A stretch of DNA of 64,000 bases from Pseudomonadota bacterium (GCA_021325655.1 JAJPGT010000020.1:1590-65589), one strand, 5' to 3'. Numbered from the stretch's first letter, positions 9,694-43,761 are shown. Notes: generated by a model from the sequence alone, not told the origin. A program made the numbers and translations.

Positions 9694-11850
9694 CTACTCG
9701 GTCCAGGCGACGAGCTGGGGCGGCCCGGGCGCCCAGCGCGCCCCAGGAATCTCCGCCAGGTGCCGGTAGTGGTCCTCCACCTCGTTGTTGGGGTCGACCC
9801 GGGTGTACCAGGCGTACTTGGCGAGCCGCTGCTCGCGGGTCATGTAGCCGTAGTGCTTGAGCCGCACCGGCAGGTCGCGCGTGGCGCCGACCAGGCCCTG
9901 GGGGACGTTGCCGCAGTGGAAGTTGCCGCCGTACCCAGTCGGGACGAAGCGCAGCCGGCGCAGCGGCTGCCCGCGCAGGCGAAAGAAGGAGGGCCGGGCG
10001 AACTGGCCGTAGATGCCGTCCACCCGGATCTGCTCCGGCGTGTCCCAGACGTAGGCGACGCGCAGCCGGTACGCGGCCACGTCCTGGCCCTGCTCCGCCG
10101 CCTGGCGGAGTAGCTCGGGGCCGCTGCGCTCCAGCACCTCGTCGCCGTCGATCCAGAGCACCCACTCTGGGCTCAGCGCGATGATGCGTTGCAGCAGGAA
10201 GTTCTTGTCGCGCGCCTCGTCCAGCCCCTGGAACGGGGAGGGGATGACGGTCACCTGCTCGCCGAAGGCGGCGCAGATCGCCGCGGTGTCGTCGGTGGAG
10301 TGGTCGTCGAGCACCAGCACCCGGCCGCACAGCGGGAGGACGCGGGCGATCACCTCGTGGATGTGGGCCGCCTCGTTCTTCACCCGTAGCGCGGCGAGGA
10401 AGCGCGGGTCGCTGAGCGAGGCGCGGGCGGCCGGGGGGCTGCCCTCCGGCCAGCGCCAGCGCCAGAGCGTGCAGGAGGGGTCGTACTTCGGCCAGGGGCG
10501 CTGCCAGCCGCGCCGGATGTACTCCTCCGAGTACGAGCGCCAGGGCTCGCACGGGATGCGGTCTAGCAGGAACACCGGGAGGGCCGGGATGATCCAGCCG
10601 CGCACCAGCCGCTCGCCCTGGGCCATCTGCCACTCCTCCAGCCCGAACCACCTGTTGTAGGGTGTCGGACGGCTGCGGGCGAAGGCGCTGCGGCGGTATA
10701 GCCCCAGGCCGGAGATGAACGGGGCCGGGCTGTAGCTGCGGGGCAGGCTCGGGTCGTCGGCGTGGGGGTTCATCGCCTCGATCCCCAGCAGCGCCAGCTC
10801 CGGGTGGCGGTCCAGCACGTCCAGGCTCTGGCGAAGCCAGCCGGGCGGGAGCATCGCGTCGTTGTCGGTCTTGACCAGGATCGGGGCGCTGGCGGATTCG
10901 ATCCAGTGGCGCATCGCAGCGACGGGCGAGCCGAAGCGGGTGCGGACGAAGCGCGCCGGGGCCGGGACGCGAGCGACGGCCGCCTCCAGCCAGGCGTCGG
11001 TACCGTCCTCCGAGCCGTCGTCGTAGATAGACAGCCGCTGCACGGACTGCCAGTCGGTCGTCTCTAGCAGTGTGGTGAACGTCTCGCGGGTGAACTCCAG
11101 CCGGTTGCGCGCCAGGTAGAGCAGGTCCACGCGCCGCTCCCCGTCCATGGGCGTTCTCTCCTCCTGCTTCGCGGCCCACGCCTGGCGGCCGTCCCACTTG
11201 GCCCGGTACAGCCGGCGGTTCTGCTCGAACAGCGCCAGCAGGTCCGGCCGGGTGCGGAAGGTAGATGGCAGCGCCCCGTCGTGATCCACGACGCAGCCAT
11301 CCCACACCCCTAGCCGCAGCCCGGCGGCGAGCACGCGGGCGCAATAGTCGTTGTCCTCCCAGCCATAGCCGGTAAACCGCTCGTCCAGCGGCCCGACCTG
11401 CTGGTAGACTTCCCAGGGCAGGTAGACACAGACGAAGGCGAGCAGCCGTGGCTCCGGGCGGAAACGCGGCACCCGCGAGGCGAGCTGTCGCGGGTTGCCC
11501 ACCACCCCGCGCACGCCGGCCGAGAGGATACCGAGCCCCGGCTGGCGCCCCGCCTGCTCCGCCAGCAGCGACAGCCCGCGCGATGTCAGCAGCCGGGCGT
11601 CATCGTTGAGCAGGACGACGTCGGTACCCGCGGCGCCAATGCCCAGGTTGGCATTGCGGGCATAGACGAACGGCTTCGCCCCGTGCACCCAGCGCACACC
11701 CGGGAGCTGCGGCTCCGCCTCCGCCCGGGCGCCGTCGTCCACTACCAGGATCCGCTCCGGCGGCAGCTCCGGCTCGTGGGCCAGTACCGACCGGACGCAG
11801 GGGACCAGGTTGGCGGCCCGAGCAGAGAGGATGACGACCGAGAACGTCAC
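9694..11850 (-). CDS. Triple GT2 (GT-A) glycosyltransferase fusion
   Basis: GTG 11850 overlaps the upstream TGA. Domain 1: VVDDG, LLNDD, GWEDND. Domain 2: IYDDGSEDGT, KTDND. Domain 3: VKNEA, LDDHSTDDT, WIDGDE, LKHYGY. Confidence 0.85.
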   Translation of the reverse strand: MTFSVVILSARAANLVPCVRSVLAHEPELPPERILVVDDGARAEAEPQLPGVRWVHGAKPFVYARNANLGIGAAGTDVVLLNDDARLLTSRGLSLLAEQAGRQPGLGILSAGVRGVVGNPRQLASRVPRFRPEPRLLAFVCVYLPWEVYQQVGPLDERFTGYGWEDNDYCARVLAAGLRLGVWDGCVVDHDGALPSTFRTRPDLLALFEQNRRLYRAKWDGRQAWAAKQEERTPMDGERRVDLLYLARNRLEFTRETFTTLLETTDWQSVQRLSIYDDGSEDGTDAWLEAAVARVPAPARFVRTRFGSPVAAMRHWIESASAPILVKTDNDAMLPPGWLRQSLDVLDRHPELALLGIEAMNPHADDPSLPRSYSPAPFISGLGLYRRSAFARSRPTPYNRWFGLEEWQMAQGERLVRGWIIPALPVFLLDRIPCEPWRSYSEEYIRRGWQRPWPKYDPSCTLWRWRWPEGSPPAARASLSDPRFLAALRVKNEAAHIHEVIARVLPLCGRVLVLDDHSTDDTAAICAAFGEQVTVIPSPFQGLDEARDKNFLLQRIIALSPEWVLWIDGDEVLERSGPELLRQAAEQGQDVAAYRLRVAYVWDTPEQIRVDGIYGQFARPSFFRLRGQPLRRLRFVPTGYGGNFHCGNVPQGLVGATRDLPVRLKHYGYMTREQRLAKYAWYTRVDPNNEVEDHYRHLAEIPGARWAPGPPQLVAWTE

Positions 11851-13007
11851 GGCTTGACCGCCTGGAGCAGGATCGTCAGCCGCGGCCCATCTACGGTGCG
11901 GTCGATCCGCTCGCGCAGGGTACGGAACTTGGCCCGGATGCCGTAGTAGCTGGCGAACCGCTCGCGGTAGGGGTTGCCGGCTTCGTAGTACAGGAAGCTG
12001 CGGCGGTTCCAGAACGAGACGTGCGTCGGGTCTTGCCAGGCGCCAGGCCCATCGGTAGTTGGGACGGCGATCTCGACGGTGCCGCCCGGCGCCAGCACCC
12101 GCCAGAGCTCGTTCATGGTGTGGATCTTGTCCGGCAGATGCTCGACGATGTCCCAGGCACGGACGTGCTCCACCGAGTCGTCCAGCCAGGGCCAGGGCTC
12201 GCGCAGGTCCACCACCTCGGTGCTCGGCCCGGGGACGATGTCCACGTTCAGGTAGCCATCCAGTGGCGCATCGCAGCTCCCGAGATTCAGTTTCATCGGC
12301 CCTCCTCGTAGCGCCGGTTGCGCTGGCGCCAGCTCGTCCCAAGCATCCTCGCCCACGATCGCCCGCAGGTCGCCCGGCCAGCGCGACCAGTACGGGCCGC
12401 GCAGCCGCTTCGGGTAGGTGTTGCCGGGGTGGATCAGCGCGACGTAGAGCGTCAGGTCCTCCAGCGTCGCCACCCGCGCCCGCGGCCGGGCCCAGACGAA
12501 GCGGCTGTCCTCGCCCACCTGCACAGAAGGAAACGGCGATCGGCACCATGATTCGCGCCGGTACAGCAGCGAGCCGCCGATCAGCACCGGGCGCGGCCCG
12601 GCCGGGTACGCGTACAGCCAGGTCTCGCCTGTGCCCAGGTGGTGGAACAGCATCCTCCGCTGCCCGCACAGCTCGGCATCGGCCCGCAGCAGCGCCTGCA
12701 CCTGGGTGCTGATTCGGCGCGAGGCCATCCAGTCGTCGTCGTCCCAGTGCAGGATCAGCTCGCCGCGACTGTGCTCCACGCACCGGTTGCGCTTCGCCCC
12801 CACGGTCTGGCGTCCCTCCAACCGGACGTAGCGCAGTCGCGGGTCCTCGGGCACGAGATCGGCGATCGGGTCCGCGCCGTCGTCCACGATCACCAGCTCG
12901 CGCGGCTCGTAGTCCTGGGCCAGAAAGCGGCGGATCGCCTGTGGGACGAACGGGCGCCGGTCGGCGGTCGGCATGATGCAGGAGACGAGCGGGCGGGTGG
13001 CGGACAT
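11847..13007 (-). CDS. GT2 glycosyltransferase fused to a class I SAM methyltransferase
   Basis: PLVSCIMPT, IVDDG, VGAKRN, HWDDDDW, VGED; then MKLNLGSC...GYLNVD...DIVEHL...ELWRVLAPGG...WQDPTH. Confidence 0.88.
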   Translation of the reverse strand: MSATRPLVSCIMPTADRRPFVPQAIRRFLAQDYEPRELVIVDDGADPIADLVPEDPRLRYVRLEGRQTVGAKRNRCVEHSRGELILHWDDDDWMASRRISTQVQALLRADAELCGQRRMLFHHLGTGETWLYAYPAGPRPVLIGGSLLYRRESWCRSPFPSVQVGEDSRFVWARPRARVATLEDLTLYVALIHPGNTYPKRLRGPYWSRWPGDLRAIVGEDAWDELAPAQPALRGGPMKLNLGSCDAPLDGYLNVDIVPGPSTEVVDLREPWPWLDDSVEHVRAWDIVEHLPDKIHTMNELWRVLAPGGTVEIAVPTTDGPGAWQDPTHVSFWNRRSFLYYEAGNPYRERFASYYGIRAKFRTLRERIDRTVDGPRLTILLQAVKP

Positions 13008-16000
13008 CAGAAGAACTCCAGCAGGTGGCCCTCACGGAGCGCACGCTCCAGCCGCGCCAGTGCCTCCTCCGCGGTGATCCCCTTGCTCTGCAGGGCGGTG
13101 CGCACCCAGGGCCGAGAGAGCACACCCCGCATCATGCTTTCGATCGCCGGCTGGCTGGAGAGCGCGTCGCGGCTAATGACCCAGCGCAATTGGCTGAAGC
13201 TCGTCTCGGCGTGGAGCACGACGTCGCGGGCGAACTCGTCCGCAGCGGCCTCCGCCGGGGCGCCGCCAAACCCCAGCCAGTACTTGAACTCGTAGGAGAT
13301 CCCGCCAGCGTACAGGTCGTAAACGCGGCTGCGCCCGGCGACGGAGACGGGGTGCTCGAACGCGGTGATCGCTCCGACGTTCCGCACCGTGACGTAGTTG
13401 AGCGTGAGGCTGGCGCCCATGGTCGTGCTCTCGCCGGCCGCCAGCCCGCTGATCAGCCGCTCCAGGTGGATGTTCGCGCCGTAGACCCGCTCGGCCTGGC
13501 CGAGCGCCTTGAACACATTGAGCGCCGCCTCATGGCTGCTGGAGAAAGCGCGATAGATGCCGCTGATCTTGGCCGCAGCATCCGGGCCGTGGAGCCGGGA
13601 GATGGCCGCGATCCCATCGGCCAGGTCCGGCGAAACCGCGCGTAGCGCCGCCGGGTTGGCCAGCGCCCAGCGGGCGAACAGGTTACCGCGCAGCCCCACG
13701 GTGCCGGTCGCTTGCAGCACCCGCTCAGCGGCGGGCAGCGTAGTGATCCGGGCGGCGACCTCGTCCAGCAGCCCAGGAATATGCTGCCCGCCGCGTTCGA
13801 ACCCCTCCAGCAGCACGTTCGCCGCCCGGGAGGCGGTGGACTGGCGCGCGACGCGGGCGAGCAGCTCCTCGCTGAGGGTGATGTTCTCGCGCGCGACCGT
13901 CTCGTACAGGCCGCGGCTGACGCGGTTGAGCACGGCCGGCAGGTCGCTGACCCGCGCCAGGCTGGGGCCGAGCTGCGCGGCCAACTGGTTGATCCCCTGC
14001 GCCGCCTCGGCCGACTCGCTCGCGGTGGTGGCGATGAAGCGCAGCTCGCCATCGGTCGCCCCGCGCAGCGCCGCGCGCAGCTCGGCCGAGAGCTGCACCA
14101 GCCCGCCAAGTTGCGCAACAGTCAGGAAGGTGTGGCTGAACTCGCGCTGCACTCCCTGCAGCGTTTCGCTCAACTGCCTGGCGTAGGTGCGGCCCAGCAG
14201 CTCGGCCAGCCCGGCGATGGAGCGGCCGCCCTGCGTGGTGCCCTGCATCAGCCGGCGGTAGGCCTCGCTGGCGCTGCGGGCGCGTTGGACGAAGGCGGCT
14301 AGCTCCTCGCTGACCTCGACGCCCTCGCGGCCGAGCTGGGCGAGCACCCCCTCCTCCGCCTGGTTCAGCACGTACAGCAGATGGCCGGGACGCAGCTTGC
14401 CCTGGAGCTTGTTGATCCCGGCCGCCACCTCCTCCGAGCGCGCCGCCCAGAGCGCCACGCGCTCGACCAGGATCGGCTGATCGGCGCCGGTTTGCTTCAG
14501 CACCGCCAGCACCTCGGGGGTCAGGCGCCGCAGCCCAATCAGGTGCTGCTCAGTCAGCTCCACCCCGGCGAAGAACTCCTGTGCCGCTCGCAGGTCCGTC
14601 GTCGCGAAGCTCGCGGCGATCGCGGTGCGCTCCGCCACCGGGAGGCGCTGGAGCATCAGCTCGAAGACGTGGCGCGCCTGCTGGATCTGCGCCGCGGTCA
14701 GCCGACCCTCGCGGAGCGCGTCGCCGAGCGTGTCGACGACCCGCAGCGTCGCCCGCTCGCTCTGGAAGACGCCCGCAGCGAGCATCAAGCGCTGCGCCTC
14801 GGCCCGGGCCAGGCCGGCGCTGGTCAGGCTGGCGACGCCCTCGGAGAAGGCGGCGGTTCCACGGACGACGCGAGCGCCAGTGCGCAGGACCGGCACGACG
14901 CTGAGCAGCACGGTGAGGCCGACCAGGCCCTTCTCCCAGCCGCTCATCTCGTCCCAGTGCTCGTAGGCGTGCTTCACCGCCAGGCCCGCCTGGGCCAGGG
15001 CATAGAGCGGGCCGATGATCGGGATGAAGCTGATCCCGACGTCCAGCACGATCTGCGCGATCGGCACCCAGGGAGCGGCCGAGACGCCCGCGTAGGCGAA
15101 GGGGTAGACGCGCAGGTAGTTCTGGATGTCGGAGATCGGGACCATGTAGTAGAAGTCCCGACCGACCCGCTTCCGGCTGACGTAGGCGAAGACGCCGTCC
15201 TGGGTGTAGTAGGTGAAGTTCAGCGGCCGGCCATACTCCTTGTTCGGCTCGAAGATGCCTCCGGTGAGGCCGAGGATCGTCAGCGGCCGCAGGTTGCCCC
15301 CCTGGAGCAGGGTGCGGAAGGCCTCTTCCCCGATCTCGTACGAGGGCGGCAGCGGCAGCTCCAGCTCATCGGGGCTGGGCGCGCGGGGCTGCGGCGGCGC
15401 GGTGACCGTCTGGGTGATCCAGACCAGCCCGCGTCGATTGGCGCGCAGCGCCCGCAGCTCGTCGATCCCCGCGCCTTGCGCGATCAGGGGGATGACCGTA
15501 GGTGTCGTCCCGGTTCCTAGGTCGATGACGTCCTCGGGTCGGTAGTTGCCGTCCGGTCCCCAGCGGTAGAGGTAGAACCCGGCGTCGGCCGTGTTGATCG
15601 TGGAGGGGTAGACGAACGTGCCCCGCCCCAGCACTTCGACCTCCGTCCGGTCCTCCTTGACAGTGGCCCACAGGGTCACCTGGTCGAGATCCGGCGCGAG
15701 CTGGGGGAAGAGGAGCCGGGCGTTCGCGGCCGCCTGCTGTAGCGGGCTGGGGGCGGTCGTCGTTGGCGCCTGCCGCTGGATCACGGCGCGAGCAGGTGCG
15801 CCGCGGCGGGCAAACTGCTGGACCACGTGGGTCAGCTCGTGGGCCAGTAGCCGCCGGCCGGCGCTGGTCTCGGGGGCAAGCTGGCCGGCGCCGAAGACCA
15901 GGTGCGGGCCAACAGCGAAGGCACGGGCGTTCAGGCTGCGGGCCGCGGCATTGGCCTGGGCATCAGCGTGCAGCCGCACCGGGCCGAAGTCCTGCCCGAA

Positions 16001-16399
16001 ATGCGCCTCCATCTCGGCTCGCACCCCGGCGGGTAGGGGTCGCCCACCGCCGAGCCCCTGGATGACCGCGTGAGCTGCCGCGGGTAGGGGCGGCCCGAGC
16101 AGCCGGCTGGGGCGGACGGCCGGGCGCCCGGTGCCTGGCGGCTCAGCGCGCGCGGGCGCCGGCGTGACTGCCTCGGCGACCCGGTCCGCCTCCTGTTCCG
16201 CCTCGTCGCCCGGCTGGCTCACCGCCAGCTTGGGCTGAAGGTGCCCCGCGGCTAGCAGGTTGGAGGGCAGGCCATCGCCCCAGGGAGTGGTCCAGGCTGG
16301 CGGGCGGGCGGGTGCGGCGGCGCGCGCTGCCGCCGGCTGTGTCTCAGCCCCCCGGGGTGTTGGGGTTCGCGCGTGGCTCCGGTCTGCGACCGCGTACAT
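13007..16399 (-). CDS. DUF4157 (eCIS core) cargo protein, polymorphic toxin-like, with a putative C-terminal PD-(D/E)xK nuclease
   Basis: [22 protein letters not shown]; [15 protein letters not shown]...ARAFAVG...[12 protein letters not shown]; hydrophobic [10 protein letters not shown] segment; C-terminal FEHPV...VYDL...YEFKYW. Confidence 0.85.
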
Positions 16400-21757: not shown

Positions 21758-21764
21758 CGCCCTG

Positions 21765-33789: not shown

Positions 33790-33806
33790 CGGCGACGCTC
33801 CTCCGG

Positions 33807-33986
33807 TCAGTCCGCCCGCAGGCGGGCGTGGCGCGCTTCGAGGTGCCACAGCAGCCGCAGCAGGTCATCCGGGCGGGGCGGCGCGGGTGGTGCGACCTCC
33901 GCGGGTGGGCGCGTCTCCTGGCCGCCAGCGCTGGTCTCGGCCTGGCGATTCACCAGGACCTCGAAGTCATTGATGATGATTGGCAT
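33807..33986 (-). CDS. Small 59-aa eCIS protein (Afp6-position), missed by the ORF track
   Basis: AAAGGAG RBS, then MPIIINDFEVLVNRQAETSAGGQETRPPAEVAPPAPPRPDDLLRLLWHLEARHARLRAD*; fills the gap between the LysM and gpD genes. Confidence 0.75.
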   Translation of the reverse strand: MPIIINDFEVLVNRQAETSAGGQETRPPAEVAPPAPPRPDDLLRLLWHLEARHARLRAD

Positions 33987-34814: not shown

Positions 34815-35447
34815 CTACCCCAGGCTCAGTCCGGCGCTCCCGCTCGCGCTGGCGCCCAGGCTGCCGCTGAGCCCGAAGCCGCCGCTGACGCTCGCCCCGG
34901 CGCTCACGCCTGCACTGACGCTCAGCCCGGCGCTGATCCCGATTCCAAAGCCAGCCCCGGCCTGGCCGGCCGGGCGGACGTCGAGCTGGGCGTAGGCGAG
35001 CTGCAGCTCTTCGATCGCCACCAGCCCCTCCCTGGCGTTCAGCGACGGGCCGCGCAGCTTCACTGGGAAGCAGTCCTTCAGCACAAAGGTGAGGCGCGGG
35101 GTGCCGTCGGCGTCCCACATCGTCACCTGCCCCTGGGCGGTGGCGAGCCGGCCGGGGGTGGCGGCAGCGACGAACCAGCTCCACAGGTCCAGGTTGGCGG
35201 TCATCCCGCGCTTCAGCGAGAGCTGGCTGTAGCTGGCCGGCCCGACCCGGTGGATCTGCTCACGGTTGTTGCCGCCTTCGCGCACCGTTTTCGGCTCGAT
35301 GGTCATCTCCAGCCCATCGCACTCGGCGAAGGCAGCGTTGCAGACGGGGTTCGTCACCCCCTCGGGCGGATCGTCCAGATCCAGGACCACCTCGAAGCGG
35401 AAGGTGGTGAACGGGGGATCGACCGTTTCGAACGCGGGATTGGGCAC
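34815..35447 (-). CDS. Tail tube protein 2 (T4 gp19-like; Afp5-like) with a Gly/Ala/Ser-rich C-terminal tail
   Basis: FAECDGLE, VREGGNN, LSLKRGMT, FPVKLRGPSLNA, AIEELQLAY. Confidence 0.9.
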   Translation of the reverse strand: MPNPAFETVDPPFTTFRFEVVLDLDDPPEGVTNPVCNAAFAECDGLEMTIEPKTVREGGNNREQIHRVGPASYSQLSLKRGMTANLDLWSWFVAAATPGRLATAQGQVTMWDADGTPRLTFVLKDCFPVKLRGPSLNAREGLVAIEELQLAYAQLDVRPAGQAGAGFGIGISAGLSVSAGVSAGASVSGGFGLSGSLGASASGSAGLSLG

Positions 35448-35450
35448 GGC

Positions 35451-38168
35451 TCACCTCTCCACGACGCTCAGCAGGCCCTCGCCGGCCCGCAGCAGAATCA
35501 CGGTGATGAACTCGATCGGCAGCGTTGGGGCGACCTTGAGCGCGATCAGGAACCGGCCATTGTCGACGTCGTTCGGGGTGTTTAGCCCGTCGTCGGCCAC
35601 GACCTGGAAGGCGGCCAGCGCCCCACGCCCGGCAAGCGCCCGCAGCGTGTTCTCGAAGCTCGCCTGCACCCGCTGCCGAAAGCGCTCGTTGTTGGGTTCG
35701 AAGACGTAGCGGAGGCCCCGGCGCAGCGCCAGCTTGCGCAGGAAGATCAGCAGCCGCCGCGCGGAGACCTGGACGAGCTGCAGGTCCGGGCTGAGCGTGT
35801 GGGCGCTGAGCGGGCTGAAGCGCCCCGGCTCCTGGCGGAGCAGGTTCACCCGAGCGTCAAACAGCGCCGCCCGCTCGCCCTCGGGCACTGACGGGATCAG
35901 CCCGACCACGCCGCGCAGGGCGACATTCGCCGGGGCCACCCAGGCGCCGCGGGCTAGCTCGCGGGCGGCGATCAGGCCGCAGACCGCCCCATCCGGCGGG
36001 CTGGGGCGGAGTGGCGCCAGCTCGGGCGTCAGCGGCTCCGGGCCGAGCGGCCAGGGATAGTACAGCGCGGCGTAGCTCAGTGCGGCATCGTCCAGGAAGC
36101 TGCCGGCTCCGGCCAGCCGCTGCCGCCAATCGAGCACCGCCCGGGTGTCGAAATGAGCCGGCAGGCTCAACACCGCCAGCGTGTCCGCCCGGGCGGCGCA
36201 GAGCCGCACCAGCGCCCGCTGCGTGGCGAGGAGCTGCTCCAGTTCGGCGCGACCATAGCGGGCCGGCTCGACCAGCACCGGCAGCGCCGCGAACTGGTGC
36301 TGGATGTCCGCCTCCTCGTCCGGCTCGGCCTCGGGCGCCGGGAGCAGCGCCACTGGCCCGCTGCAGTGCGCCTCGGTGGGGAGCCAGCGCGGCAGCGCGG
36401 CCGGTGGCTGCGGTGGAATGCAGTCCATGAAGCAGGACCAATCACGCGACGGGGCGGGCGGGGCCGGCGGCTCGGGCTCCGGTGCGAGCGGCTCCGGCGG
36501 TCCCCAGGGGCGGTGAACGACGTCCGGGAGCGCGATCAGCGCCACCTCCTCCACGGGCGCCAGACTGTGCAGCTTGAGCAACGGCGAAGGCGGATTGCTC
36601 AGGTACAGCAGCTCCTCGGCCGCGCCGAGCACGGTGCTGGTGCCGAGATCGGCCAGACGCGGATCGAGGAACAGGCTGACCGGGTCGAAGCTGTCCAGCC
36701 CGTCGCTGCCGGGCACCCGGGGCGGATCGGGCCGCGTCTCGCCGAGCGGGAGCGGCCCACTGAACTGGTCCGGGCTCGGCAGCGCGGACATCCCGAGCGG
36801 GAGATAGAGCGGCAGCGCGCCCGCTGGCGTCACCTGGAAAGGCGCGCCCAGTCGCGCCGAGCGCGGCAACTTTGCCGCGTCCGTGCCCAATGCCAGCTCG
36901 CCAGGGTCGCTGCCCAGGCAGTCGATCCAGGAGCGGCCGGCGGCGCTGCTGCCCGCCCCGACGGACAGGCCGGACATCTCGGCAGCGGAGCCGGCTGCGG
37001 GTGCCGCGCAGAAGCGCAGGTCGGACCACACCTCCAGCGTATCGACCCCCTCGCAAACGAACAGGTCGAACCGCAGCCGGTCCGCCTCGACCGGGTCGCC
37101 CATGGGATCGGCAGCCGCCTCCCAGAGCGGCGACTGTCCGGTGACGCGCCGGGTGAAGCTATCGAGCGGCGAGCCAGGCAGCCAGGCCTCCAGCGGGGAG
37201 CCCGGCGTCGACTGCTGCGCGACTTCGGCAACGGGCAGTAGCAGCGTCCGGGCGGCGAAGAGCGGCGAGCCGACCTCCTCGCAGGTAATCCGCAGCAGGT
37301 CACCAACGCGCACCGGGGCGCCGGCCGGCAGGTCGAGCGCCAGGCGTCCGCCCGCCACCGGCTCCAGCCCGGAGAGCGGGGCACCGAGCGGCTCCCAGCC
37401 GCCCGTTCCGAGCCGCTCGACCTCGAGCGGGAGCGGGAGCGGGTCCGGCAGCCCGGCCTCCAACGCCAGCGTCGCCCCCGCCGCGACCGCGCTCACGGGC
37501 AGTCCCTGCACGGTGCTCGCCGCCAGCCCCCGCGCCCGCACCTGCGCCACCGGGAACAGGAGCAGCGGACGCGCCGGGCCCGGGAAGCGCAGCCGGAGCA
37601 GGTCGCCGGGGAGGAGCGCATCAGCGCTGGATAGGTCCAGGTCGATCTCGGCCGGCGCTCCCTCCACCACGTCGGCGGGGCGGTAGGCGTCCGGTCCGGG
37701 GGCGATGCGGATCGGCAGCGCTTCGAGCTGGGTTCCGACGCGCACTGCCGCGGACCAGCGCCCGACAGAGGCCGCGGGGACAATGGTTGGACGCAGCTCC
37801 AGCGGCCCGGCGGCCGGGTCCCAGGCGACCAAGCCGGGGAGGCGGAACTGGTTGGCGCCAGCGGTCTCGCCCGCCACCCGCACCATGTAGCAGCGGCGGC
37901 CGCCGTTGTCAAAGAACGCCTGCACCGCGGCCGGCAGGTTGGCATACACCGGACGGCCGCCGTCGCGGGCGAGCAGCAGGTCTCCGCCGAAGACGGCGCG
38001 ATACTGGCCCGGGTCCTCCACCGCCACCGGTGTGTCGAGCGGACCGCGCTCGGCGAAGCCGACGAACGCCGCCACGTCGAGCCGCAGCGGCTCCTCGGCA
38101 GGCGGGAGCGCGGTCTCACAGACCACACCCGGCAGTCGGCCCCGGAACGTCAGCGGGGAAAGCACCAC
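35451..38168 (-). CDS. Tail sheath protein 2 (large, insertion-rich)
   Basis: LPGVVCE, DVAAFVGFAERGP, AVQAFFDNGGRRCYMVRV; C-terminal YAALYYPW, APANVAL, RRLL, VFEPN, IEFITV. Confidence 0.9.
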   Translation of the reverse strand: MVLSPLTFRGRLPGVVCETALPPAEEPLRLDVAAFVGFAERGPLDTPVAVEDPGQYRAVFGGDLLLARDGGRPVYANLPAAVQAFFDNGGRRCYMVRVAGETAGANQFRLPGLVAWDPAAGPLELRPTIVPAASVGRWSAAVRVGTQLEALPIRIAPGPDAYRPADVVEGAPAEIDLDLSSADALLPGDLLRLRFPGPARPLLLFPVAQVRARGLAASTVQGLPVSAVAAGATLALEAGLPDPLPLPLEVERLGTGGWEPLGAPLSGLEPVAGGRLALDLPAGAPVRVGDLLRITCEEVGSPLFAARTLLLPVAEVAQQSTPGSPLEAWLPGSPLDSFTRRVTGQSPLWEAAADPMGDPVEADRLRFDLFVCEGVDTLEVWSDLRFCAAPAAGSAAEMSGLSVGAGSSAAGRSWIDCLGSDPGELALGTDAAKLPRSARLGAPFQVTPAGALPLYLPLGMSALPSPDQFSGPLPLGETRPDPPRVPGSDGLDSFDPVSLFLDPRLADLGTSTVLGAAEELLYLSNPPSPLLKLHSLAPVEEVALIALPDVVHRPWGPPEPLAPEPEPPAPPAPSRDWSCFMDCIPPQPPAALPRWLPTEAHCSGPVALLPAPEAEPDEEADIQHQFAALPVLVEPARYGRAELEQLLATQRALVRLCAARADTLAVLSLPAHFDTRAVLDWRQRLAGAGSFLDDAALSYAALYYPWPLGPEPLTPELAPLRPSPPDGAVCGLIAARELARGAWVAPANVALRGVVGLIPSVPEGERAALFDARVNLLRQEPGRFSPLSAHTLSPDLQLVQVSARRLLIFLRKLALRRGLRYVFEPNNERFRQRVQASFENTLRALAGRGALAAFQVVADDGLNTPNDVDNGRFLIALKVAPTLPIEFITVILLRAGEGLLSVVER

Positions 38169-38178: not shown

Positions 38179-38634
38179 CTACTCGATGGTCAGGTCTTCG
38201 CAGACCAGCACCAGCTCCTCGATCGCGACGTCGGTGCCGCCCTTGGCGTTGAGCGAGGGGCCGGTCCACTTGGTCGGGCGGGCGTTGGTGAGCCGCCAGG
38301 TCATCACCGTGTTCTGCCCGGCCTCGTCGCGGAGCTGGATCGTGACGCTGCGTCGGGCCGACTGGTCACCCTCGCGCACCGCCTTGATCCACTCGTACAG
38401 GTCGGTCGCCCCGATCAGCCCGCGCTTCAGGGTGATGTCGCCGACCTTGTAGATGCCGTTGATCTTGCGGACGTGGTTGACCGCCTCGTTGCCGTTGCGG
38501 TACTCGGCGGTGGTCACTTCCATGTTCAGCCCGCTCACCTCCTGGAAACCGGCCCGGACGCTGGCGGTGTCGCCGGTGCCCAGGTCCACCAGGAAGTTGA
38601 AGCTGCCGTAGGGGTTGGCGCGTTCCGTCGCCAT
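38179..38634 (-). CDS. Tail tube protein 1 (T4 gp19-like; Afp1-like)
   Basis: NPYGSFNFLV, AGFQEVSGL, EYRNGNE, ITLKRGLIG, PTKWTGPSLNAKG, VAIEELVL. Confidence 0.95.
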   Translation of the reverse strand: MATERANPYGSFNFLVDLGTGDTASVRAGFQEVSGLNMEVTTAEYRNGNEAVNHVRKINGIYKVGDITLKRGLIGATDLYEWIKAVREGDQSARRSVTIQLRDEAGQNTVMTWRLTNARPTKWTGPSLNAKGGTDVAIEELVLVCEDLTIE

Positions 38635-38659: not shown

Positions 38660-40714
<2,055 letters not shown>

Positions 40715-40789: not shown

Positions 40790-41731
40790 CTACGCGGCGT
40801 CGATCAGCAGCTCCGATCGCTGGTCGGTCGCTACCACCAGCTCCCGACCGAGCCGAAGCGGGCGGACGACCGAGCTACCTGGCTGGGTGGGCGTGTCGTA
40901 CACCCGGGCACTCCTTTGCTCCAGGATGGAGCGGACGTCTGGTGGGTCGCGCGGATCGAGACCCGGCACCCGTCGCTGGTGCGCCGGCTCGTAGAACACC
41001 TGGACACTGATGGGCCAGGTAAGCTGGTCGAACGGCAGCGCCCCATGCGGCGGCGAGCCCGCCAGGGGCGGCAGAGTGGCGGCGTAGGGTAGGAACAGCG
41101 CGAACATCCCGCGCGCGTCCGCCAGCGCGGCGTAGGTCACGCCGTCGGTGCTGGCCGTCACCAGCGCCCAGCCGGCCGCTGCCCCGGCCTGTCCGGACGG
41201 ATCCCGCTCGGCGACCTGGCCGCGCACCGCCGCCAGCCCGGAGGGTACCGGCCGGGCCGGACTGGAGAACAGCGGAACCTCCAGGAGCTGCTCGCGCGGA
41301 AGACAGAGCAGCAGCACCTGGGGCAGGAAGCGCCCGGCCTGGTCCTCCACCCGCACGACAAAGTTGGCCGCGGGCGTCAGCGCCTCCGCGCCAACCAGCC
41401 GCCGCAGCGTCCCCAGCTCCAGCAGCTCCTCGGGCGTCGGCTCGAAGCCCTCGAACGGCGAGCCGCCGCCGCACCAGGCACTCGCCTCCCGCTCCCCGCG
41501 CACGTAGGGCTCCAGCCCCGGCAGGGTCCGGAAGCCGTAGATGCCCGAGACCGGCGAGCGGAGCGCCAGCATGGGTCGACCGACGCCGACAACCTCGCCA
41601 ACCACGATCTCGAGCGGCCGCGCTGTGACGACCAGGCCGTCGGTCACCGGGACGCCGCGGCTCAGGTCAATAAAGCGCACTCCCAGCGGGGCGCGGAGCA
41701 GGATCGACTCCAGCGGGACGACCCGCAGCAT
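40790..41731 (-). CDS. eCIS-associated hypothetical protein (beta-sandwich/carboxypeptidase-regulatory-like)
   Basis: ATG 41731 overlaps the Pvc16 stop; PLGVRFID, SGIYGF, LFSSPARP, ADARGMFALFLPY. Confidence 0.65.
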   Translation of the reverse strand: MLRVVPLESILLRAPLGVRFIDLSRGVPVTDGLVVTARPLEIVVGEVVGVGRPMLALRSPVSGIYGFRTLPGLEPYVRGEREASAWCGGGSPFEGFEPTPEELLELGTLRRLVGAEALTPAANFVVRVEDQAGRFLPQVLLLCLPREQLLEVPLFSSPARPVPSGLAAVRGQVAERDPSGQAGAAAGWALVTASTDGVTYAALADARGMFALFLPYAATLPPLAGSPPHGALPFDQLTWPISVQVFYEPAHQRRVPGLDPRDPPDVRSILEQRSARVYDTPTQPGSSVVRPLRLGRELVVATDQRSELLIDAA

Positions 41732-42324
41732 CAGCCGCCCTCCTTCAGCACCCCGAAGTCGAGCCGGCGACTGAGCACCGGCGCCGCGCTCGGCAGCTCG
41801 AGCAGCGACTCGATCCGCACTACCCGGGCGACGTAGGGCACCGAGATCTGGAAATCGGTCGGGAGCACGTCCCAGATGCGGAACAGCTCCTCGTTGCTGA
41901 GCTGGCCGGCGACGATCTCCACCGTCTCGTCCGGAGCGAACACGTCGGCGGCCAGACTGTTCAGGAGCGCGGCCGGCAGGATGGGCGTATCCTCCAGCGT
42001 TCGCATCATCCAGCCCAGAATCTCCTGCTCCAGCGAGGCCTCCTTGGCCCAGGGGGTGAGCAGCAGGTGCAGGTCGAGCGGAAGCTGCGTTCGTCGCGCC
42101 ACCCCGTTCGGGCCGACACTGCTGGGAGGTGTGCGCTGCACGCCGTTGACGAGCACGCGGTACAGGAACAGCGATACTCCGGTGTCCATCGGGGTGGCGA
42201 AGTGCCTGGAGCGATACACCTTGAACTGCAGCTCGGTGTTGTCGAACAGCTCCGGCTGCCAGGCCTGCTGCAGCAGACGAATCACCGCCTCGCACGTCGC
42301 CCCCACCGCACGGAAGGTCGCCAC
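41731..42324 (-). CDS. Pvc16/DUF4255 tail terminator/cap protein (Afp16-like)
   Basis: VSLFLYRV, LPLDLHLLLTPW, ILGWMMRTLEDTPIL, LFRIW, SVPYVARVV. Confidence 0.9.
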   Translation of the reverse strand: MATFRAVGATCEAVIRLLQQAWQPELFDNTELQFKVYRSRHFATPMDTGVSLFLYRVLVNGVQRTPPSSVGPNGVARRTQLPLDLHLLLTPWAKEASLEQEILGWMMRTLEDTPILPAALLNSLAADVFAPDETVEIVAGQLSNEELFRIWDVLPTDFQISVPYVARVVRIESLLELPSAAPVLSRRLDFGVLKEGG

Positions 42325-42350
42325 AGCCGCTTCGCTCTCCCCGTACCCGT

Positions 42351-42611
42351 CTACTCGGTCGCAGTGCTGAGGCGGAGTAACGCCTCGAACAGCGCCTGAT
42401 TGCTCTGGATCGGAAAGGTTCCGCCATCAGGGAGCAGGCGCAACTGGCCCCGACTGCCGGGGATCTCTGACTCGTGCTCGAGCGTGAGCACGAACCGTTG
42501 CTTCGGCAGGACAAGCGCCTGGCTCGTTTCGACATTCGCAACCCGCAGCAGGCCGCTGGTGGGATCGTCCAGGGGCAAGATGCTGATCAGCAGCGCGATC
42601 CGTCTTGGCAC
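42351..42611 (-). CDS. Small hypothetical protein, first gene of the eCIS operon
   Basis: Globular-looking ~86 aa ORF lying between the SARP-type promoter and Pvc16; start uncertain (GTG 42611 or 42638). Confidence 0.6.
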   Translation of the reverse strand: MPRRIALLISILPLDDPTSGLLRVANVETSQALVLPKQRFVLTLEHESEIPGSRGQLRLLPDGGTFPIQSNQALFEALLRLSTATE

Positions 42612-42783: not shown

Positions 42784-43761
42784 TTACAGGCGGATCGCCA
42801 CCTCGGCCGGCAGCTCGGTGTCGTCGCGGATCGCCTGGTAGAGCCGTTCGGTGAGCTGGGAGGGGCGCACGCCCAGCTCGGTCTGGAGCAAGCGGGCGCA
42901 GGCCTCGTACTGGCGCAGCGCGCAGGCGCGCTGCCCGAGCGCGTAGTGGGTCCGCATCAGATGGCGGTGCGCCCGCTCGCGAAGCTGGTCCAGCTCCAGG
43001 ATCTGCTGGGCGTAGTCGATCACCGTGCCCAGCTCGCTGGCCTGCGCCGCCAGCTCGCAGAGCACAACCAGCGCGTTCATCCGCCGCTCAGCGAAATGTG
43101 CCCGCGGCAGGTGGCTCCACTCGACGTATGGAGTGTCCGCGAGATAGTCGCCCTGGTACAGCGCCAGCGCCGCGACAAAGGCCGCCACCGCTCCGTCCGC
43201 GTCGCGCTGGGCCAGGCAGTGGCGTCCCTGCTGATAGTGCGCGTCGAACAGCGCCGCGTCGGTCACTAGGCACCCGGCGGCGATCGCGTAGCGCTCGTTC
43301 TCACACTGCACCACGCTCGTCGGCGCGCCGGCCGGATCTAGCAGCCCACGGAGGGCGCTCACCGCCACGTGGAGTCGATGGATCGCCCGTTGCGGCTCCG
43401 CCTCGGGCCAGAGCAGTTCGATCAGCTCGTCGCGCGGGACCAGTATCCCCACTCGCGCCGCCAGGTAGCAGCAGAGCTGGACTACGGAACTGTTCTGCCC
43501 GAGCGGCAGCGGCTCCTCCCCGCGGAACAGGGCGAAGCGCCCGAAATACCGGGCATACAACGGCGCCGGTGTCTCCGGCCGAGCGGCCACCCCCGCGCCC
43601 TCCGCCCGCCCAGCAGAAGGGGCGGAAACATGGCGAAGCTGATCACACAGCTCGGCGATGCTCCGCCGCAGCGCCGAGAGCTCCGAGACGAGGCGCTCAC
43701 AGGGACTTGCCACGGGACAGGGCAGGAGAACGAAGGCTGGGTTGTGGGTATCTGGCTGCAT
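42784..43761 (-). CDS. SARP-family (winged helix + BTAD) transcriptional activator
   Basis: FGRFAL, VPRDELIELLWPE, LHVAVSALRGLL, ALALYQGDYL, RERAHRHLM, ALRQYE..LQTELGVRPS..TERLY. Confidence 0.92.
   Translation of the reverse strand: MQPDTHNPAFVLLPCPVASPCERLVSELSALRRSIAELCDQLRHVSAPSAGRAEGAGVAARPETPAPLYARYFGRFALFRGEEPLPLGQNSSVVQLCCYLAARVGILVPRDELIELLWPEAEPQRAIHRLHVAVSALRGLLDPAGAPTSVVQCENERYAIAAGCLVTDAALFDAHYQQGRHCLAQRDADGAVAAFVAALALYQGDYLADTPYVEWSHLPRAHFAERRMNALVVLCELAAQASELGTVIDYAQQILELDQLRERAHRHLMRTHYALGQRACALRQYEACARLLQTELGVRPSQLTERLYQAIRDDTELPAEVAIRL

What the first reader, a model, noticed from the sequence alone, without database searches (positions are those of the whole stretch)
9694..43761. 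Contractile injection system operon ending in a coupled glycosylation/methylation cassette: candidate self-glycosylated CIS
Seen: the last DUF4157 cargo gene overlaps the GT2-methyltransferase start (TGATG at 13005-13009), and that gene overlaps the triple-GT2 gene (GTGA at 11847-11850). Four GT2 domains and one methyltransferase are therefore translationally coupled to the CIS operon. They are not coupled to the neighbouring glycan operon, which has its own apparent -10 at 9265. None has an obvious TM or signal segment, so they look cytoplasmic. Established: some mycobacteriophages encode glycosyltransferases that glycosylate virion proteins, and canonical AFP/PVC core gene sets have no such cassette. 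Inference: the cassette builds a short, methyl-capped glycan on the particle or cargo, for shielding, stability or targeting.
Basis: partly seen in the sequence, partly recalled or inferred. Interest (0 to 1): 0.85.

Follow-up and report, generated by a model that had tools for sequence, protein, structure and literature searches.

The report
Glycosylation cassette built into injection-system operons
Two sugar-transferase genes at the end of a phage-tail-like injection operon belong to an enzyme group that is nearly always encoded inside such operons, with its nearest relatives beside phage capsid genes, so the particles may carry a sugar coat, which is not yet shown.

Summary
The sequence facts hold. 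A 21-gene minus-strand eCIS operon (43761-9694) ends in a GT2-methyltransferase gene and a triple-GT2 gene joined by TGATG and GTGA overlaps, and neither product has a TM-like segment.

Of the 80 closest genomic loci encoding the conserved N-terminal GT2 domain, 70 carry eCIS genes within 10 kb, across 13 phyla and four gene orders. In two unbiased phylum samples, 6 of 7 strong hits lie in eCIS loci. A syntenic eCIS in a same-phylum genome lacks the cassette, and only 3 of 68 and 3 of 25 eCIS-marker genomes have it, so it is an optional accessory.

The eCIS-linked domains form one starred set in the tree. The viral relatives fall outside it: the cassette sits 0.3-5.5 kb after the HK97-type capsid gene in 9 of 10 records tested.

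The cassette proteins hold only GT and methyltransferase domains. Most have no room for an N-terminal loading region, and no export genes are conserved beside them.

Best reading (about 0.5): cytoplasmic glycosylation of a particle or cargo protein. The acceptor is unknown and no glycoprotein evidence exists. I found no mention in the eCIS literature searched; supplements were closed.

The parts
42784..43761 (-). SARP/BTAD-type transcriptional activator at the head of the locus
   Evidence: Pfam BTAD 2.2e-31 and Trans_reg_C. Homologous regulators stand beside eCIS in L021, L057, L073 and G234.
40790..42541 (-). 583-aa protein of unknown family, first gene after the regulator
   Evidence: No Pfam hit. 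No BLASTP similarity to the Pvc16-like protein of L021.
38660..40714 (-). sheath protein 1 (684 aa)
   Evidence: Phage_sheath_1 1.7e-20 and Phage_sheath_1C 3e-15.
38179..38634 (-). inner tube protein 1 (151 aa)
   Evidence: Phage_T4_gp19 3.5e-38.
35451..38168 (-). second sheath-like protein (905 aa)
   Evidence: Phage_sheath_1C 5.9e-07 and Phage_sheath_1 7.1e-05. Syntenic in G234.
34815..35447 (-). tube-like protein 2 (210 aa) with a 55-aa G/A/S-rich C-terminal tail
   Evidence: Phage_T4_gp19 9.8e-27 over residues 15-155. The tail is read and is missing from the GT-less G234 homologue (n=1).
34023..34805 (-). CIS_tube + LysM protein (260 aa)
   Evidence: CIS_tube 3.3e-18 and LysM 1.2e-05.
32710..33849 (-). 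baseplate hub (gpD-like)
   Evidence: Phage_GPD 2.2e-14.
31993..32700 (-). spike OB-fold protein (VgrG/gpV-like)
   Evidence: Phage_base_V 7.7e-26.
30311..32062 (-). unknown protein (start uncertain) with two C-terminal hydrophobic segments
   Evidence: No Pfam hit. Hydropathy peaks at residues 536 and 555. Homologue in G234.
29902..30297 (-). gp25-like baseplate wedge
   Evidence: GPW_gp25 3.6e-26.
27539..29890 (-). Baseplate J-like protein
   Evidence: Baseplate_J 1e-05. 45% identical to the G234 homologue.
24996..27545 (-). P2 gpI-like baseplate protein
   Evidence: Tail_P2_I 5.4e-11.
19772..25156 (-). three genes of unknown family (unk702 23048-25156, start uncertain; unk428 21765-23051; unk661 19772-21757), conserved in related eCIS
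   Evidence: No Pfam hit. tblastn homologues in the same order in many GT-linked loci and in G234. unk661 clusters with the AAA ATPases.
17608..19968 (-). AAA+ ATPase (Afp15/Pvc15-like; start uncertain)
   Evidence: AAA 1.5e-25. 45-60% identical to ATPases of GT-linked loci.
16521..17591 (-). DUF4157/eCIS_core protein, 356 aa (putative cargo)
   Evidence: PF13699 2.9e-34 at residues 131-208.
13007..16399 (-). DUF4157/eCIS_core protein, 1130 aa (putative cargo/toxin) with a P/A/T-rich N-terminal region and two hydrophobic segments near residues 444-510
   Evidence: PF13699 1.1e-30 at residues 121-195. Sequence. Hydropathy.
11847..13007 (-). GT2-methyltransferase fusion (386 aa). Its N-terminal GT2 domain (HWDDDDW motif) is the conserved eCIS-linked 'anchor' domain
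   Evidence: Pfam. AF2 model with pLDDT 85.8. Generic GT-A neighbours. Full-length homologues 55-71% identical. Context counts.
9694..11850 (-). triple GT2 protein (718 aa), each domain with a DxD-type motif
   Evidence: Glycos_transf_2 in 3 stretches, plus Glyco_tranf_2_4 and Glyco_transf_7C. 60-68% identical homologues follow the GT2-MT gene in L025-L029 and L072. Domain-3-like GTs occur in phage cassettes.
9330..9668 (-). small ORF (112 aa from GTG, or about 100 aa from ATG 9632 behind GGAGG) of unknown function
   Evidence: Coding-type GC3 of 0.88, whereas the 122-aa frame listed by the ORF listing is non-coding-like. No Pfam hit. No homologue in other loci.
5571..9246 (-). four sugar-nucleotide genes (LegB-like 4,6-dehydratase, sugar-1-P nucleotidyltransferase, two SDR epimerase/reductases). 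Possible local donor supply; membership in the unit is undecided
   Evidence: Pfam. NCBIfam TIGR04180 at 391 bits, under the cutoff of 475. Same strand, gaps of 83 nt or less. Not conserved beside the cassette elsewhere.

Best explanation
Genes 11847-13007 and 9694-11850 are a glycan-assembly cassette of four GT-A (GT2) domains plus one SAM-methyltransferase domain. The cassette is a genuine but optional accessory module of the contractile injection system, not a stray neighbour. Its N-terminal GT2 domain belongs to a clade that is almost always encoded inside eCIS loci. The nearest relatives outside that clade sit just after the major capsid gene in tailed-phage structural modules. Most likely mechanism (inferred, not shown): the enzymes are made together with the particle in the producer's cytoplasm. 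The conserved anchor GT2 domain puts the first sugar on a protein of the particle or on its DUF4157 cargo. The variable GT domains extend it and the methyltransferase O-methylates it, so that released particles carry a methylated oligosaccharide for protection, stability or recognition. In this window the adjacent NDP-sugar 4,6-dehydratase genes may supply a 6-deoxy sugar donor.
For: SHOWN.
(1) Translational overlaps join the DUF4157 gene, the GT2-MT gene and the triple-GT2 gene.
(2) The search for related loci found 583 relatives in species-representative genomes and kept the best 80. Of these, 70 hold at least one eCIS gene within the fetched flanks, and 54 of the 59 loci of 14 kb or more do. 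The 70 rest on tblastn hits plus ORF clusters: 51 of 80 meet the stricter rule (a structural or DUF4157 tblastn hit, or a c4/c5 ORF) and 4 rest on the AAA ATPase alone.
(3) The GT occurs in four different gene orders (of 79 loci classed): after AAA/DUF4157 in 39; after the DUF6519 (eBAP5) tail-fibre gene in 14; as a ~900-aa GT2+GT1 fusion directly before the sheath gene in 7, plus L021 and L055; and convergent on the operon end in 2. The loci span 13 phyla by record titles.
(4) Unbiased samples. In 401 genomes of the window's phylum, 5 have the domain at E<=1e-25, and 3 of them are within 10 kb of the AAA gene. In 251 Acidobacteriota, 5 have it at E<=1e-20, all 5 are among the 25 eCIS_core-positive genomes, and 3 are inside eCIS loci. 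Overall 6 of the 7 hits with E<=1e-57 are eCIS-embedded.
(5) In the orthologous loci the GT genes are the best-conserved genes. Against L025, GT2-MT is 66% and triple GT 62% identical, versus 31-44% for P2_I, unk702, unk428 and unk661. Against L028 the GTs are 60 and 68%, versus AAA 49%.
(6) 63 anchor ORFs contain only GT and methyltransferase domains apart from one NPCBM: GT2 in 61, Methyltransf_23 in 12, Methyltransf_24 in 11, GT1 in 10, GT9 in 4. None has a toxin, TM or export domain.
(7) Of 138 ORFs just downstream in 54 loci, no Pfam family occurs in more than 5, and no export or lipid-carrier family is among the 25 families shown.
(8) The viral-contig scan found 592 relatives. The same order (GT2, MT, GT3x-like) recurs in phage contigs. 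L149 reads TerL, portal, S78 protease, HK97 capsid, GT2, 223 aa, GT2, GT2, then an HK97-gp10-like gene. A PF05065 capsid gene lies 0.3-5.5 kb upstream on the same strand in 9 of 10 records tested, and two of them are 100% complete with terminal repeats.
(9) In a FastTree tree, all 72 eCIS-linked domains plus 11 unlinked genomic ones form one starred set (99). All 33 viral rows fall outside it.

INFERRED from precedent. Chlorovirus PBCV-1 A064R is a GT-GT-methyltransferase acting on capsid glycans (passage read in PMC7826918). Cluster F1 mycobacteriophages Che8 and Rita carry glycans on their capsid proteins, and related phages encode GTs near the 3' end of the genome (passage read in PMC11256854).
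Against: No glycoprotein, expression or binding evidence exists, and the acceptor is unknown. No S/T-rich tract was found in any CIS protein at the threshold used. A candidate acceptor, the T/S/P-rich C-terminal tail of the tube protein in the sheath-first eCIS type, is present in 5 GT-negative genomes as well as 2 GT-positive ones, so it is not tied to the GT. The cassette is rare among eCIS: 3 of 68 AAA-positive genomes in one phylum sample and 3 of 25 eCIS_core-positive genomes in the other. It is absent from the syntenic G234 locus, so particles work without it. GT2, GT4 and GT9 enzymes are typical of lipid-linked surface glycans and are likewise soluble. The structure and sequence neighbours are polysaccharide enzymes: heparosan and chondroitin synthases, SpsA, TarP/TarS. 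In this window the cassette abuts an ABC-2 permease, a coiled-coil methyltransferase and a GT4, which looks like a cell-surface glycan cluster. 10 of the 80 loci show no eCIS gene (5 of them have 14 kb or more), as do 4 of 10 family-positive genomes in the samples. Phage capsids are absent from eCIS, so the phage acceptor cannot be the same protein.
Confidence: 0.5

Rival explanations
1. Producer-surface remodelling. The cassette extends or caps a lipid-linked cell-envelope glycan, so that the producer and its kin are not bound by their own particles (receptor masking, like phage seroconversion), or so that particles are retained or released properly.
For: The GT families and solved neighbours are polysaccharide enzymes. 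Multi-GT proteins plus a methyltransferase resemble ABC-transporter-dependent O-antigen polymerases with a methyl cap (recalled: WbdA/WbdD). The window has an ABC-2 permease, a coiled-coil methyltransferase, a GT4 and NDP-sugar genes next door. In 14 loci the GT directly follows the tail-fibre (DUF6519/eBAP5) gene, the place where receptor-related genes would be expected.
Against: No export, flippase, priming or ligase family recurs beside the GT in 54 loci. The window's neighbouring cluster has no homologue beside the cassette elsewhere. Orthologous cassettes 60-68% identical occur in Acidobacteriota and Chloroflexota, whose envelopes differ (envelope difference recalled). Four of 4 non-eCIS relatives examined are not in polysaccharide clusters. 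Phage relatives sit inside the late structural module right after the capsid gene. That is a poor place for a gene that must be expressed from a prophage.
Confidence: 0.2
2. The GT proteins are themselves cargo: effectors injected to glycosylate a target-cell molecule, as with the Afp18-like Yersinia glycosyltransferase toxin.
For: In the window and in 39 of 79 loci classed, the GT lies at the 3' end after the AAA ATPase and DUF4157 genes, where eCIS effectors are usually encoded. Published effector-picking criteria (3' position, enzymatic domain, next to DUF4157) would select it (passages in PMC8213781). A GT toxin of an eCIS is known (passage in PMC10598620).
Against: In 55 of 75 anchor ORFs the GT fold starts 30 residues or less from the longest possible N-terminus. 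That leaves no room for the disordered N-terminal loading region that AlgoCIS cargo needs (passages in bioRxiv 10.64898/2026.05.27.728243). The GT also occurs before the sheath gene, after the fibre gene or on the opposite strand. It is better conserved than the structural genes instead of being polymorphic. Up to four GT domains plus a methyltransferase indicate oligosaccharide assembly, not single-sugar toxin chemistry.
Confidence: 0.1
3. Chance adjacency. In this genome the two GT genes simply belong to the neighbouring cell-envelope glycan cluster and have no functional tie to the CIS.
For: All genes from 42541 down to 5571 are on one strand with short gaps, so the operon boundary cannot be read. 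Sugar-nucleotide and glycan genes follow directly.
Against: 70 of 80 relatives and 6 of 7 strong hits in unbiased samples are in eCIS loci with unrelated downstream genes. The six orthologous two-gene cassettes (L025-L029, L072) are all beside eCIS genes.
Confidence: 0.03

Closest known systems
Extracellular contractile injection systems (Afp, PVC, AlgoCIS and the DUF4157-bearing lineages catalogued by Chen 2019 and Geller 2021)
   Same: Sheath, gp19 tube, gp25, Baseplate_J, P2_I, VgrG/gpD spike, AAA ATPase, DUF4157 proteins at the 3' end and a BTAD regulator. BTAD regulators and 3' effectors are described in PMC8213781.
   Different: The main texts of PMC6899500, PMC8213781, PMC11297309, PMC12210884, PMC12923769, PMC10598620 and PMC8894135 mention no glycosyltransferase or methyltransferase accessory gene. 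The only glycosyltransferase mentioned is the Afp18-like toxin, via a text mention or the Jank 2015 citation in PMC10598620, PMC11297309 and PMC8894135. Here a multi-GT/MT cassette is the last gene block.
Chlorovirus PBCV-1 A064R and A111/114R (virus-encoded multidomain GTs that build capsid-protein glycans)
   Same: Several GT domains fused with a methyltransferase in one soluble protein, encoded by the particle-forming element itself (passage in PMC7826918).
   Different: Eukaryotic giant virus with N-linked glycans on Vp54. No sequence relationship was tested here, and the acceptor in eCIS is unknown.
Mycobacteriophage (cluster F1: Che8, Rita) virion glycosylation
   Same: Phage-encoded GTs decorate virion proteins with a glycan shield (passage in PMC11256854). 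Relatives of the window's cassette lie in tailed-phage structural modules.
   Different: Those GTs lie near the right genome end. The Freeman 2023 paper was not held, so details are recalled. My protein search of the phage collection listed no mycobacteriophage among its organism or host tallies; 25 of the 29 records were shown, and the best was Synechococcus phage S-CRM01 at 26.6% identity.
ABC-transporter-dependent O-antigen assembly (multidomain polymerising GTs with a methyl/phosphomethyl chain terminator, WbdA/WbdD type; recalled)
   Same: Soluble multi-GT proteins plus a methyltransferase. The window's neighbours include an ABC-2 permease and a coiled-coil methyltransferase.
   Different: No transporter, priming GT or ligase travels with the cassette in other loci.
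Afp18-like / Yersinia ruckeri glycosyltransferase toxin (eCIS effector)
   Same: A glycosyltransferase encoded at the 3' end of an eCIS locus (passage in PMC10598620).
   Different: That is a single-sugar toxin domain inside a large cargo protein. Here there are GT2 domains in tandem with a methyltransferase and no N-terminal loading region.
Phage seroconversion GTs (gtrABC type; recalled)
   Same: GT2-family enzymes carried by phage-derived elements, often near tail-fibre genes.
   Different: The Gtr proteins are membrane proteins acting via undecaprenyl-phosphate. The cassette proteins have no TM segment, and their phage relatives sit in the late head module.

Membership tests
eCIS (extracellular contractile injection system) locus | Contractile sheath and inner tube genes | tested here: met
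   Phage_sheath_1/1C in two genes, Phage_T4_gp19 in two genes, CIS_tube in one.
eCIS (extracellular contractile injection system) locus | Baseplate and spike genes (gp25, Baseplate_J, P2_I, gpD hub, VgrG OB fold) | tested here: met
eCIS (extracellular contractile injection system) locus | Afp15/Pvc15-type AAA ATPase and DUF4157/eCIS_core proteins | tested here: met
   AAA 1.5e-25. PF13699 2.9e-34 and 1.1e-30.
eCIS (extracellular contractile injection system) locus | Tail terminator/cap (Pvc16/DUF4255) | tested here: inconclusive
   No window protein hits Pvc16_N. The 583-aa first gene shows no BLASTP similarity to the L021 Pvc16-like protein.
eCIS (extracellular contractile injection system) locus | No capsid/terminase (not a prophage) and no T6SS membrane complex | tested here: inconclusive
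   None was found among the 30 window proteins scanned from 1146 to 46362. 46-64 kb was not scanned. Release of particles is not testable here.
GT2 (GT-A fold) glycosyltransferases | Glycos_transf_2 profile match, GT-A fold and DxD motif | tested here: met
   PF00535 3.2e-18 and 3.6e-26. AF2 model aligned with SpsA, TarP and heparosan synthase. DxD-type motifs in all four domains.
Class I SAM-dependent methyltransferase (C-terminal half of the 386-aa protein) | Profile match above the curated cutoff | tested here: inconclusive
   The window protein is below the Pfam cutoffs (22.9 vs 27; 18.8 vs 21.2). Homologues at 55-71% identity carry PF13489/PF08241. L025's orthologue scores 28.8 bits on PF13489.
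eCIS cargo / eCIS-associated toxin | Encoded at the 3' end next to DUF4157 genes | tested here: met
   Window order. Same order in 39 of 79 loci classed.
eCIS cargo / eCIS-associated toxin | Disordered N-terminal loading region ahead of the functional domain | tested here: not met
   The GT fold begins at about residue 5 in the window protein. The N-extension is 30 aa or less in 55 of 75 ORFs.
Particle (virion-type) glycosylation cassette | Encoded within the structural gene block of a phage-derived particle | tested here: met
   eCIS contexts. Phage head-module contexts.
Particle (virion-type) glycosylation cassette | A structural or cargo protein carries the GT-dependent glycan | not testable with these tools
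   Needs glycoproteomics of purified particles with and without the GT genes.
Cell-surface polysaccharide gene cluster | GTs travel with priming GT, flippase or ABC exporter, and ligase/polymerase | tested here: not met
   The window has an ABC-2 permease nearby. However, across 54 loci no such family is among the 25 families shown for 138 downstream ORFs.

The most novel reading that the evidence does not exclude
A phage-derived, horizontally mobile 'particle glycosylation module' exists. One clade of GT2 enzymes, usually fused to further GTs and often to a methyltransferase, was recruited from tailed-phage head modules into contractile injection systems. It now coats eCIS particles or their DUF4157 cargo with a methylated glycan in at least 13 bacterial phyla. 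That would make protein glycosylation a general, unrecognised layer of eCIS (and soil phage) biology that could set particle stability, target range or self/non-self discrimination.
Probability: 0.45. Interest if true: 0.85.

Novelty: new variant of a known kind. Interest (0 to 1): 0.72.

Why it matters
eCIS are being engineered as protein-delivery devices, and their natural targets are mostly unknown. A conserved glycosylation accessory would be a new determinant of particle surface chemistry, bearing on stability in soil, shielding and receptor interplay. It would extend phage virion glycosylation from a few mycobacteriophages to a wide set of environmental phages and phage-tail machines.

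The finding is directly testable in culturable, non-pathogenic isolates that carry the module: Roseithermus sacchariphilus MEBiC09517, Mucilaginibacter agri R11, Corallococcus terminator and Pyxidicoccus caerfyrddinensis (record titles).

Even if the glycan goes to the cell surface instead, a GT clade that tracks eCIS loci across phyla would point to a self-protection mechanism not yet described for these systems.

Tried and rejected
Transcription. No RNA holder was listed for window:8800-17600. The promoter/terminator scan and folding of three intergenic gaps gave nothing above shuffles.

Acceptor search.
- No window of 30 residues reaches 37% Ser+Thr in the CIS proteins. The exceptions are an over-extended N-terminus of unk702 and one stretch of the tube-LysM protein.
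- The T/S/P-rich C-terminal tail of the tube protein in the sheath-first eCIS type looked promising. It is present in G556, G489, G647, G459 and G538, where no GT was found at E<=1e-20, as well as in G571 and G416. I rejected it as a GT-specific feature.
- The G/A/S tail on the window's tube2 is absent from the GT-less G234 homologue. That is one pair only, so I keep it only as a lead.

Structure. Foldseek and PDB sequence searches give only generic GT-A enzymes.

Annotation errors corrected.
- The minus-strand '465-aa' and '122-aa' ORFs used as queries are non-coding frames by GC3.
- The real genes are a plus-strand GT4 (4189-5574) and a 112-aa minus-strand ORF.
- The greedy ORF caller used for the locus maps sometimes picks antisense shadows (clusters c16, c21). 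Counts therefore rest on tblastn plus ORF clusters.

Rows left out.
- The Pfam scan of anchor ORFs used 63 of 75. Twelve near-duplicates or short contigs were dropped to fit the size limit.
- The downstream scan used at most 3 ORFs per locus: 138 of 213 ORFs, from 54 loci of orders A, C, D and x.
- Trees dropped domains under 180 aa.
- Only the best 80 of 583 genomic relatives and 79 of 592 viral relatives were fetched. The association is shown only for the closest relatives and weakens below about 45% identity.

Not used: complex prediction (enzyme-substrate pairs rarely score, and I make no binding claim), the search of protein representatives, the protein-atlas search, read laying, and the metagenome scan.

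Literature. Nine searches and term look-ups in seven eCIS papers found no eCIS glycosylation cassette. Supplementary tables were closed. This includes the Pfam enrichment list of Geller 2021, which might list Glycos_transf_2.

Unpublished genomes. The description of G571 (fibre-then-GT order) rests on an unpublished genome. The tallies (G037; G251; G443) include unpublished genomes.

Full report
**What is in the window.** The window is high-GC (0.68-0.76). It lies on contig C81 of a 5.2-Mb, 111-contig assembly that has no family-level relative among the genomes held.

From 43761 down to 9694 the minus strand carries one uninterrupted gene array. By Pfam it is a complete contractile injection system, in this order:
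- a BTAD/SARP regulator;
- an unknown 583-aa protein;
- sheath, tube, a second sheath-like gene, a second tube-like gene, and a CIS_tube-LysM gene;
- gpD hub, VgrG-type OB fold, an unknown protein, gp25, Baseplate_J, and P2 gpI;
- three unknown genes;
- an AAA ATPase;
- two DUF4157/eCIS_core proteins of 356 and 1130 aa.

The assembly holds no second such locus.

**The observation.**
- The 1130-aa DUF4157 gene ends, and the 386-aa gene starts, in TGATG at 13009-13005.
- The 386-aa gene ends, and the 718-aa gene starts, in GTGA at 11850-11847.
- The 386-aa protein is a GT2 domain plus a C-terminal methyltransferase-like domain. The window copy is below Pfam cutoffs, but homologues score above them.
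- The 718-aa protein has three GT2 stretches.
- All four GT domains keep a DxD-type motif.
- Neither protein has a TM-like segment.

These parts of the finding are confirmed.

The statement that the cassette is uncoupled from the next genes is not established. The TATACT hexamer is there. However, the scans found no promoter-like site and no intergenic terminator-like site, and the gaps fold no better than shuffles. The 83-nt gap is shorter than two gaps inside the CIS array.

By GC3, two ORFs in the mechanical list are shadows:
- The true small gene after the GTs is 9330-9668 (112 aa, no family).
- The '465-aa' minus ORF is really a plus-strand GT4 at 4189-5574.

Downstream lie a LegB-like NDP-sugar 4,6-dehydratase, a nucleotidyltransferase and two SDR enzymes. 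Beyond the convergent GT4 lie a coiled-coil methyltransferase, a sulfatase-family protein and an ABC-2 permease. Taken alone, that neighbourhood looks like a cell-surface glycan cluster.

*Family size.* The 386-aa fusion has over a thousand homologues. Full-length ones are 55-71% identical, and their source names span several phyla.

*Closest relatives.* A scan of one genome per species found at least 583 loci encoding relatives of the N-terminal GT2 domain (motif HWDDDDW), and the best 80 were fetched with 10-kb flanks.
- By tblastn with the window's and a relative's CIS proteins, plus ORF clustering, 70 of the 80 have at least one eCIS gene in the flanks, including 54 of the 59 loci of 14 kb or more.
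- Of the 70, 51 meet a stricter rule (a structural or DUF4157 tblastn hit, or a c4/c5 ORF), and 4 rest on the AAA ATPase alone.
- The 10 without an eCIS gene include five short contigs.

*Gene orders.* The GT stands in four arrangements (79 loci classed):
- after AAA ATPase and DUF4157 genes, as in the window: 39 loci;
- directly after the DUF6519 gene: 14 loci. A 2026 catalogue defines DUF6519 as the eBAP5 tail-fibre anchor domain;
- as a ~900-aa GT2+GT1+GT1 fusion directly before the sheath gene: 7 loci, plus L055 and the same-order relative G022;
- convergent on the operon's end: 2 loci.

The record titles span 13 phyla. The exact two-gene cassette (GT2-MT then triple GT2, 60-68% identical) recurs in six loci of Acidobacteriota and Chloroflexota. 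All six are beside eCIS genes, and there the cassette genes are better conserved than the structural genes.

*Unbiased samples.*
- In 401 genomes of the window's own phylum, the domain occurs at E<=1e-25 in 5. Three of these (G000, G391, G207) have it within 10 kb of the AAA gene.
- In 251 Acidobacteriota it occurs at E<=1e-20 in 5. All 5 are among the 25 genomes with eCIS_core, and three (G416, G571, G640) have it inside eCIS loci.
- Taking the 7 hits with E<=1e-57, 6 are eCIS-embedded. The three weaker hits (37-43% identity) are not.

*How often eCIS carry it.* The cassette is rare among eCIS: 3 of 68 AAA-positive genomes and 3 of 25 eCIS_core-positive genomes. G234, in the same phylum, has a gene-for-gene syntenic system. 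It ends in a DUF4157-nuclease toxin, a 185-aa ORF and then a tRNA synthetase, with no GT.

*Conclusion.* The cassette is an optional accessory that belongs to eCIS. The chance-adjacency reading is contradicted.

**Relatives in phages.**
- A scan of IMG/VR found 592 relatives. In the best 79 loci there are no eCIS genes (one has a myovirus-like sheath), but the same order GT2, methyltransferase, GT3x-like recurs. Thirteen loci show a terminase upstream.
- One contig reads TerL, portal, S78 protease, HK97 capsid, GT2, 223 aa, GT2, GT2, 244 aa, and then, after one unscanned ORF, an HK97-gp10-like gene.
- In 9 of 10 viral records tested, a PF05065 capsid gene lies 0.3-5.5 kb upstream of the cassette on the same strand. 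Two of these records are complete with terminal repeats.
- A weak genomic relative (G566) also sits in a prophage, next to capsid and terminase genes.
- In a FastTree tree of 117 anchor domains, all 72 eCIS-linked rows plus 11 unlinked genomic rows form one starred set (99). All 33 viral rows fall outside it. The root is unknown, so direction is not shown.

**What does it do?**

*Against 'the GT is cargo':*
- The fold starts within 30 residues of the longest possible N-terminus in 55 of 75 ORFs. AlgoCIS cargo needs a disordered N-terminal region for loading.
- The positions before the sheath gene and after the fibre gene are not cargo positions.
- The proteins are conserved, not polymorphic.
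- They combine up to four or five GT and methyltransferase domains.

*Against 'cell-surface glycan':*
- No export, priming or ligase family recurs downstream in 54 loci.
- The window's neighbouring cluster is not conserved with the cassette.
- Non-eCIS relatives are not in polysaccharide clusters.
- The phage copies sit in the late head module.

*For particle or cargo glycosylation:* the only thing the eCIS and phage contexts share is the assembly of a released protein particle. Virus-encoded multidomain GT(-MT) enzymes that glycosylate capsid proteins are established in chloroviruses and mycobacteriophages.

*Weaknesses:*
- There is no acceptor. One candidate feature failed its test, and another rests on a single comparison.
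- There are no RNA data.
- The structural neighbours are polysaccharide enzymes.
- The cassette is dispensable for eCIS in general.

*Weights:* particle/cargo glycosylation about 0.5, surface remodelling 0.2, cargo 0.1, chance adjacency 0.03. The remainder is unassigned.

**Comparison and novelty.** The locus meets the gene-content features of an eCIS, except that no terminator/cap homologue was detected. The cassette is a GT2-family member. It fails the one cargo feature that could be tested. Whether it is a particle-glycosylation cassette cannot be tested with these tools.

Seven eCIS papers were searched by term in their main text, and nine library searches were run. They gave no description of such a cassette.

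I rate the finding a new variant of a known kind. It is of high but not top interest, because the key biochemical claim is still inference.

**Claims that rest on unpublished genomes.** The G571 locus description rests on an unpublished genome. Parts of the tallies also include unpublished genomes (G037, G251, G443).

Noticed in passing
window 35451-38168 and 34815-35447: The locus has a second, much larger sheath-like gene (905 aa) and a second tube-like gene beside the canonical pair, plus a CIS_tube-LysM gene. The same duplication is syntenic in G234. The role of the second sheath/tube pair is unexplained.
   Followed up: partly
window 34815-35447 (C-terminal 55 residues) and 34023-34805 (last 13 residues): Tube-like protein 2 ends in a G/A/S-rich low-complexity tail, and the tube-LysM protein ends in an Ala-Ser repeat. 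The GT-less G234 homologues lack both (one comparison only). This is a possible glycan acceptor or merely a linker.
   Followed up: partly
window 13007-16399, residues about 444-510: The 1130-aa DUF4157 protein has two strongly hydrophobic segments and no recognisable C-terminal toxin domain. No small immunity-like ORF follows it: the GT gene overlaps its stop instead.
   Followed up: no
window 302-5574: A likely ABC-transporter-type surface-glycan cluster: ABC-2 permease (302-1240, minus), sulfatase-family protein (1146-2834), methyltransferase with a 130-residue N-terminal coiled coil (2857-3954; reminiscent of chain-length-regulating terminators, recalled), and a plus-strand GT4 (4189-5574) convergent with the sugar-nucleotide genes.
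   Followed up: partly
window 4123-5520 (minus) and 9292-9660 (minus): Two long minus-strand ORFs in the mechanical list are antisense or out-of-frame shadows by GC3 (0.80 and 0.56, against about 0.9 for real genes). This is a caution for ORF-based reading of this 72% GC sequence.
   Followed up: yes
window 44047-46362: An Old-Yellow-Enzyme-type flavin oxidoreductase fused to a pyridine-nucleotide disulphide oxidoreductase domain lies just upstream of the regulator. A 42% identical homologue also lies near the eCIS of L062. The region 46-64 kb of the window was not annotated.
   Followed up: no
L103:9425-9973: Between the DUF4157 toxin gene and the GT gene of an Acidobacteria locus sits a GAD-like/Tdi1-type T6SS immunity protein. 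This suggests that eCIS is antibacterial and that the GT follows a toxin-immunity pair.
   Followed up: no
L105:12418-16302 (G234): The GT-less syntenic eCIS ends in a 1294-aa DUF4157 protein with a C-terminal non-specific endonuclease domain, followed by a 185-aa ORF (a likely immunity gene).
   Followed up: no
L113:11624-13101 (G566 prophage): A distant GT2 relative lies in a prophage next to an amino-acid:DNA transferase (ADDT) gene and a GNAT gene. In that phage the GT could act on DNA rather than on protein.
   Followed up: no
phage record HQ615693.1 / NC_015569.1, 81051-81968: Synechococcus myophage S-CRM01 encodes a protein matching residues 55-341 of the GT2-MT fusion (26.6% identity, E 1e-20). 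One record annotates it as a glycosyl transferase, the other as a methyltransferase.
   Followed up: no
L197-L204 (tube genes of sheath-first eCIS in Acidobacteriota): The tube proteins of this eCIS type share a conserved 15-residue T/S/P/E-rich C-terminal tail beyond the gp19 domain, whether or not a GT is present. Its function is unknown.
   Followed up: yes
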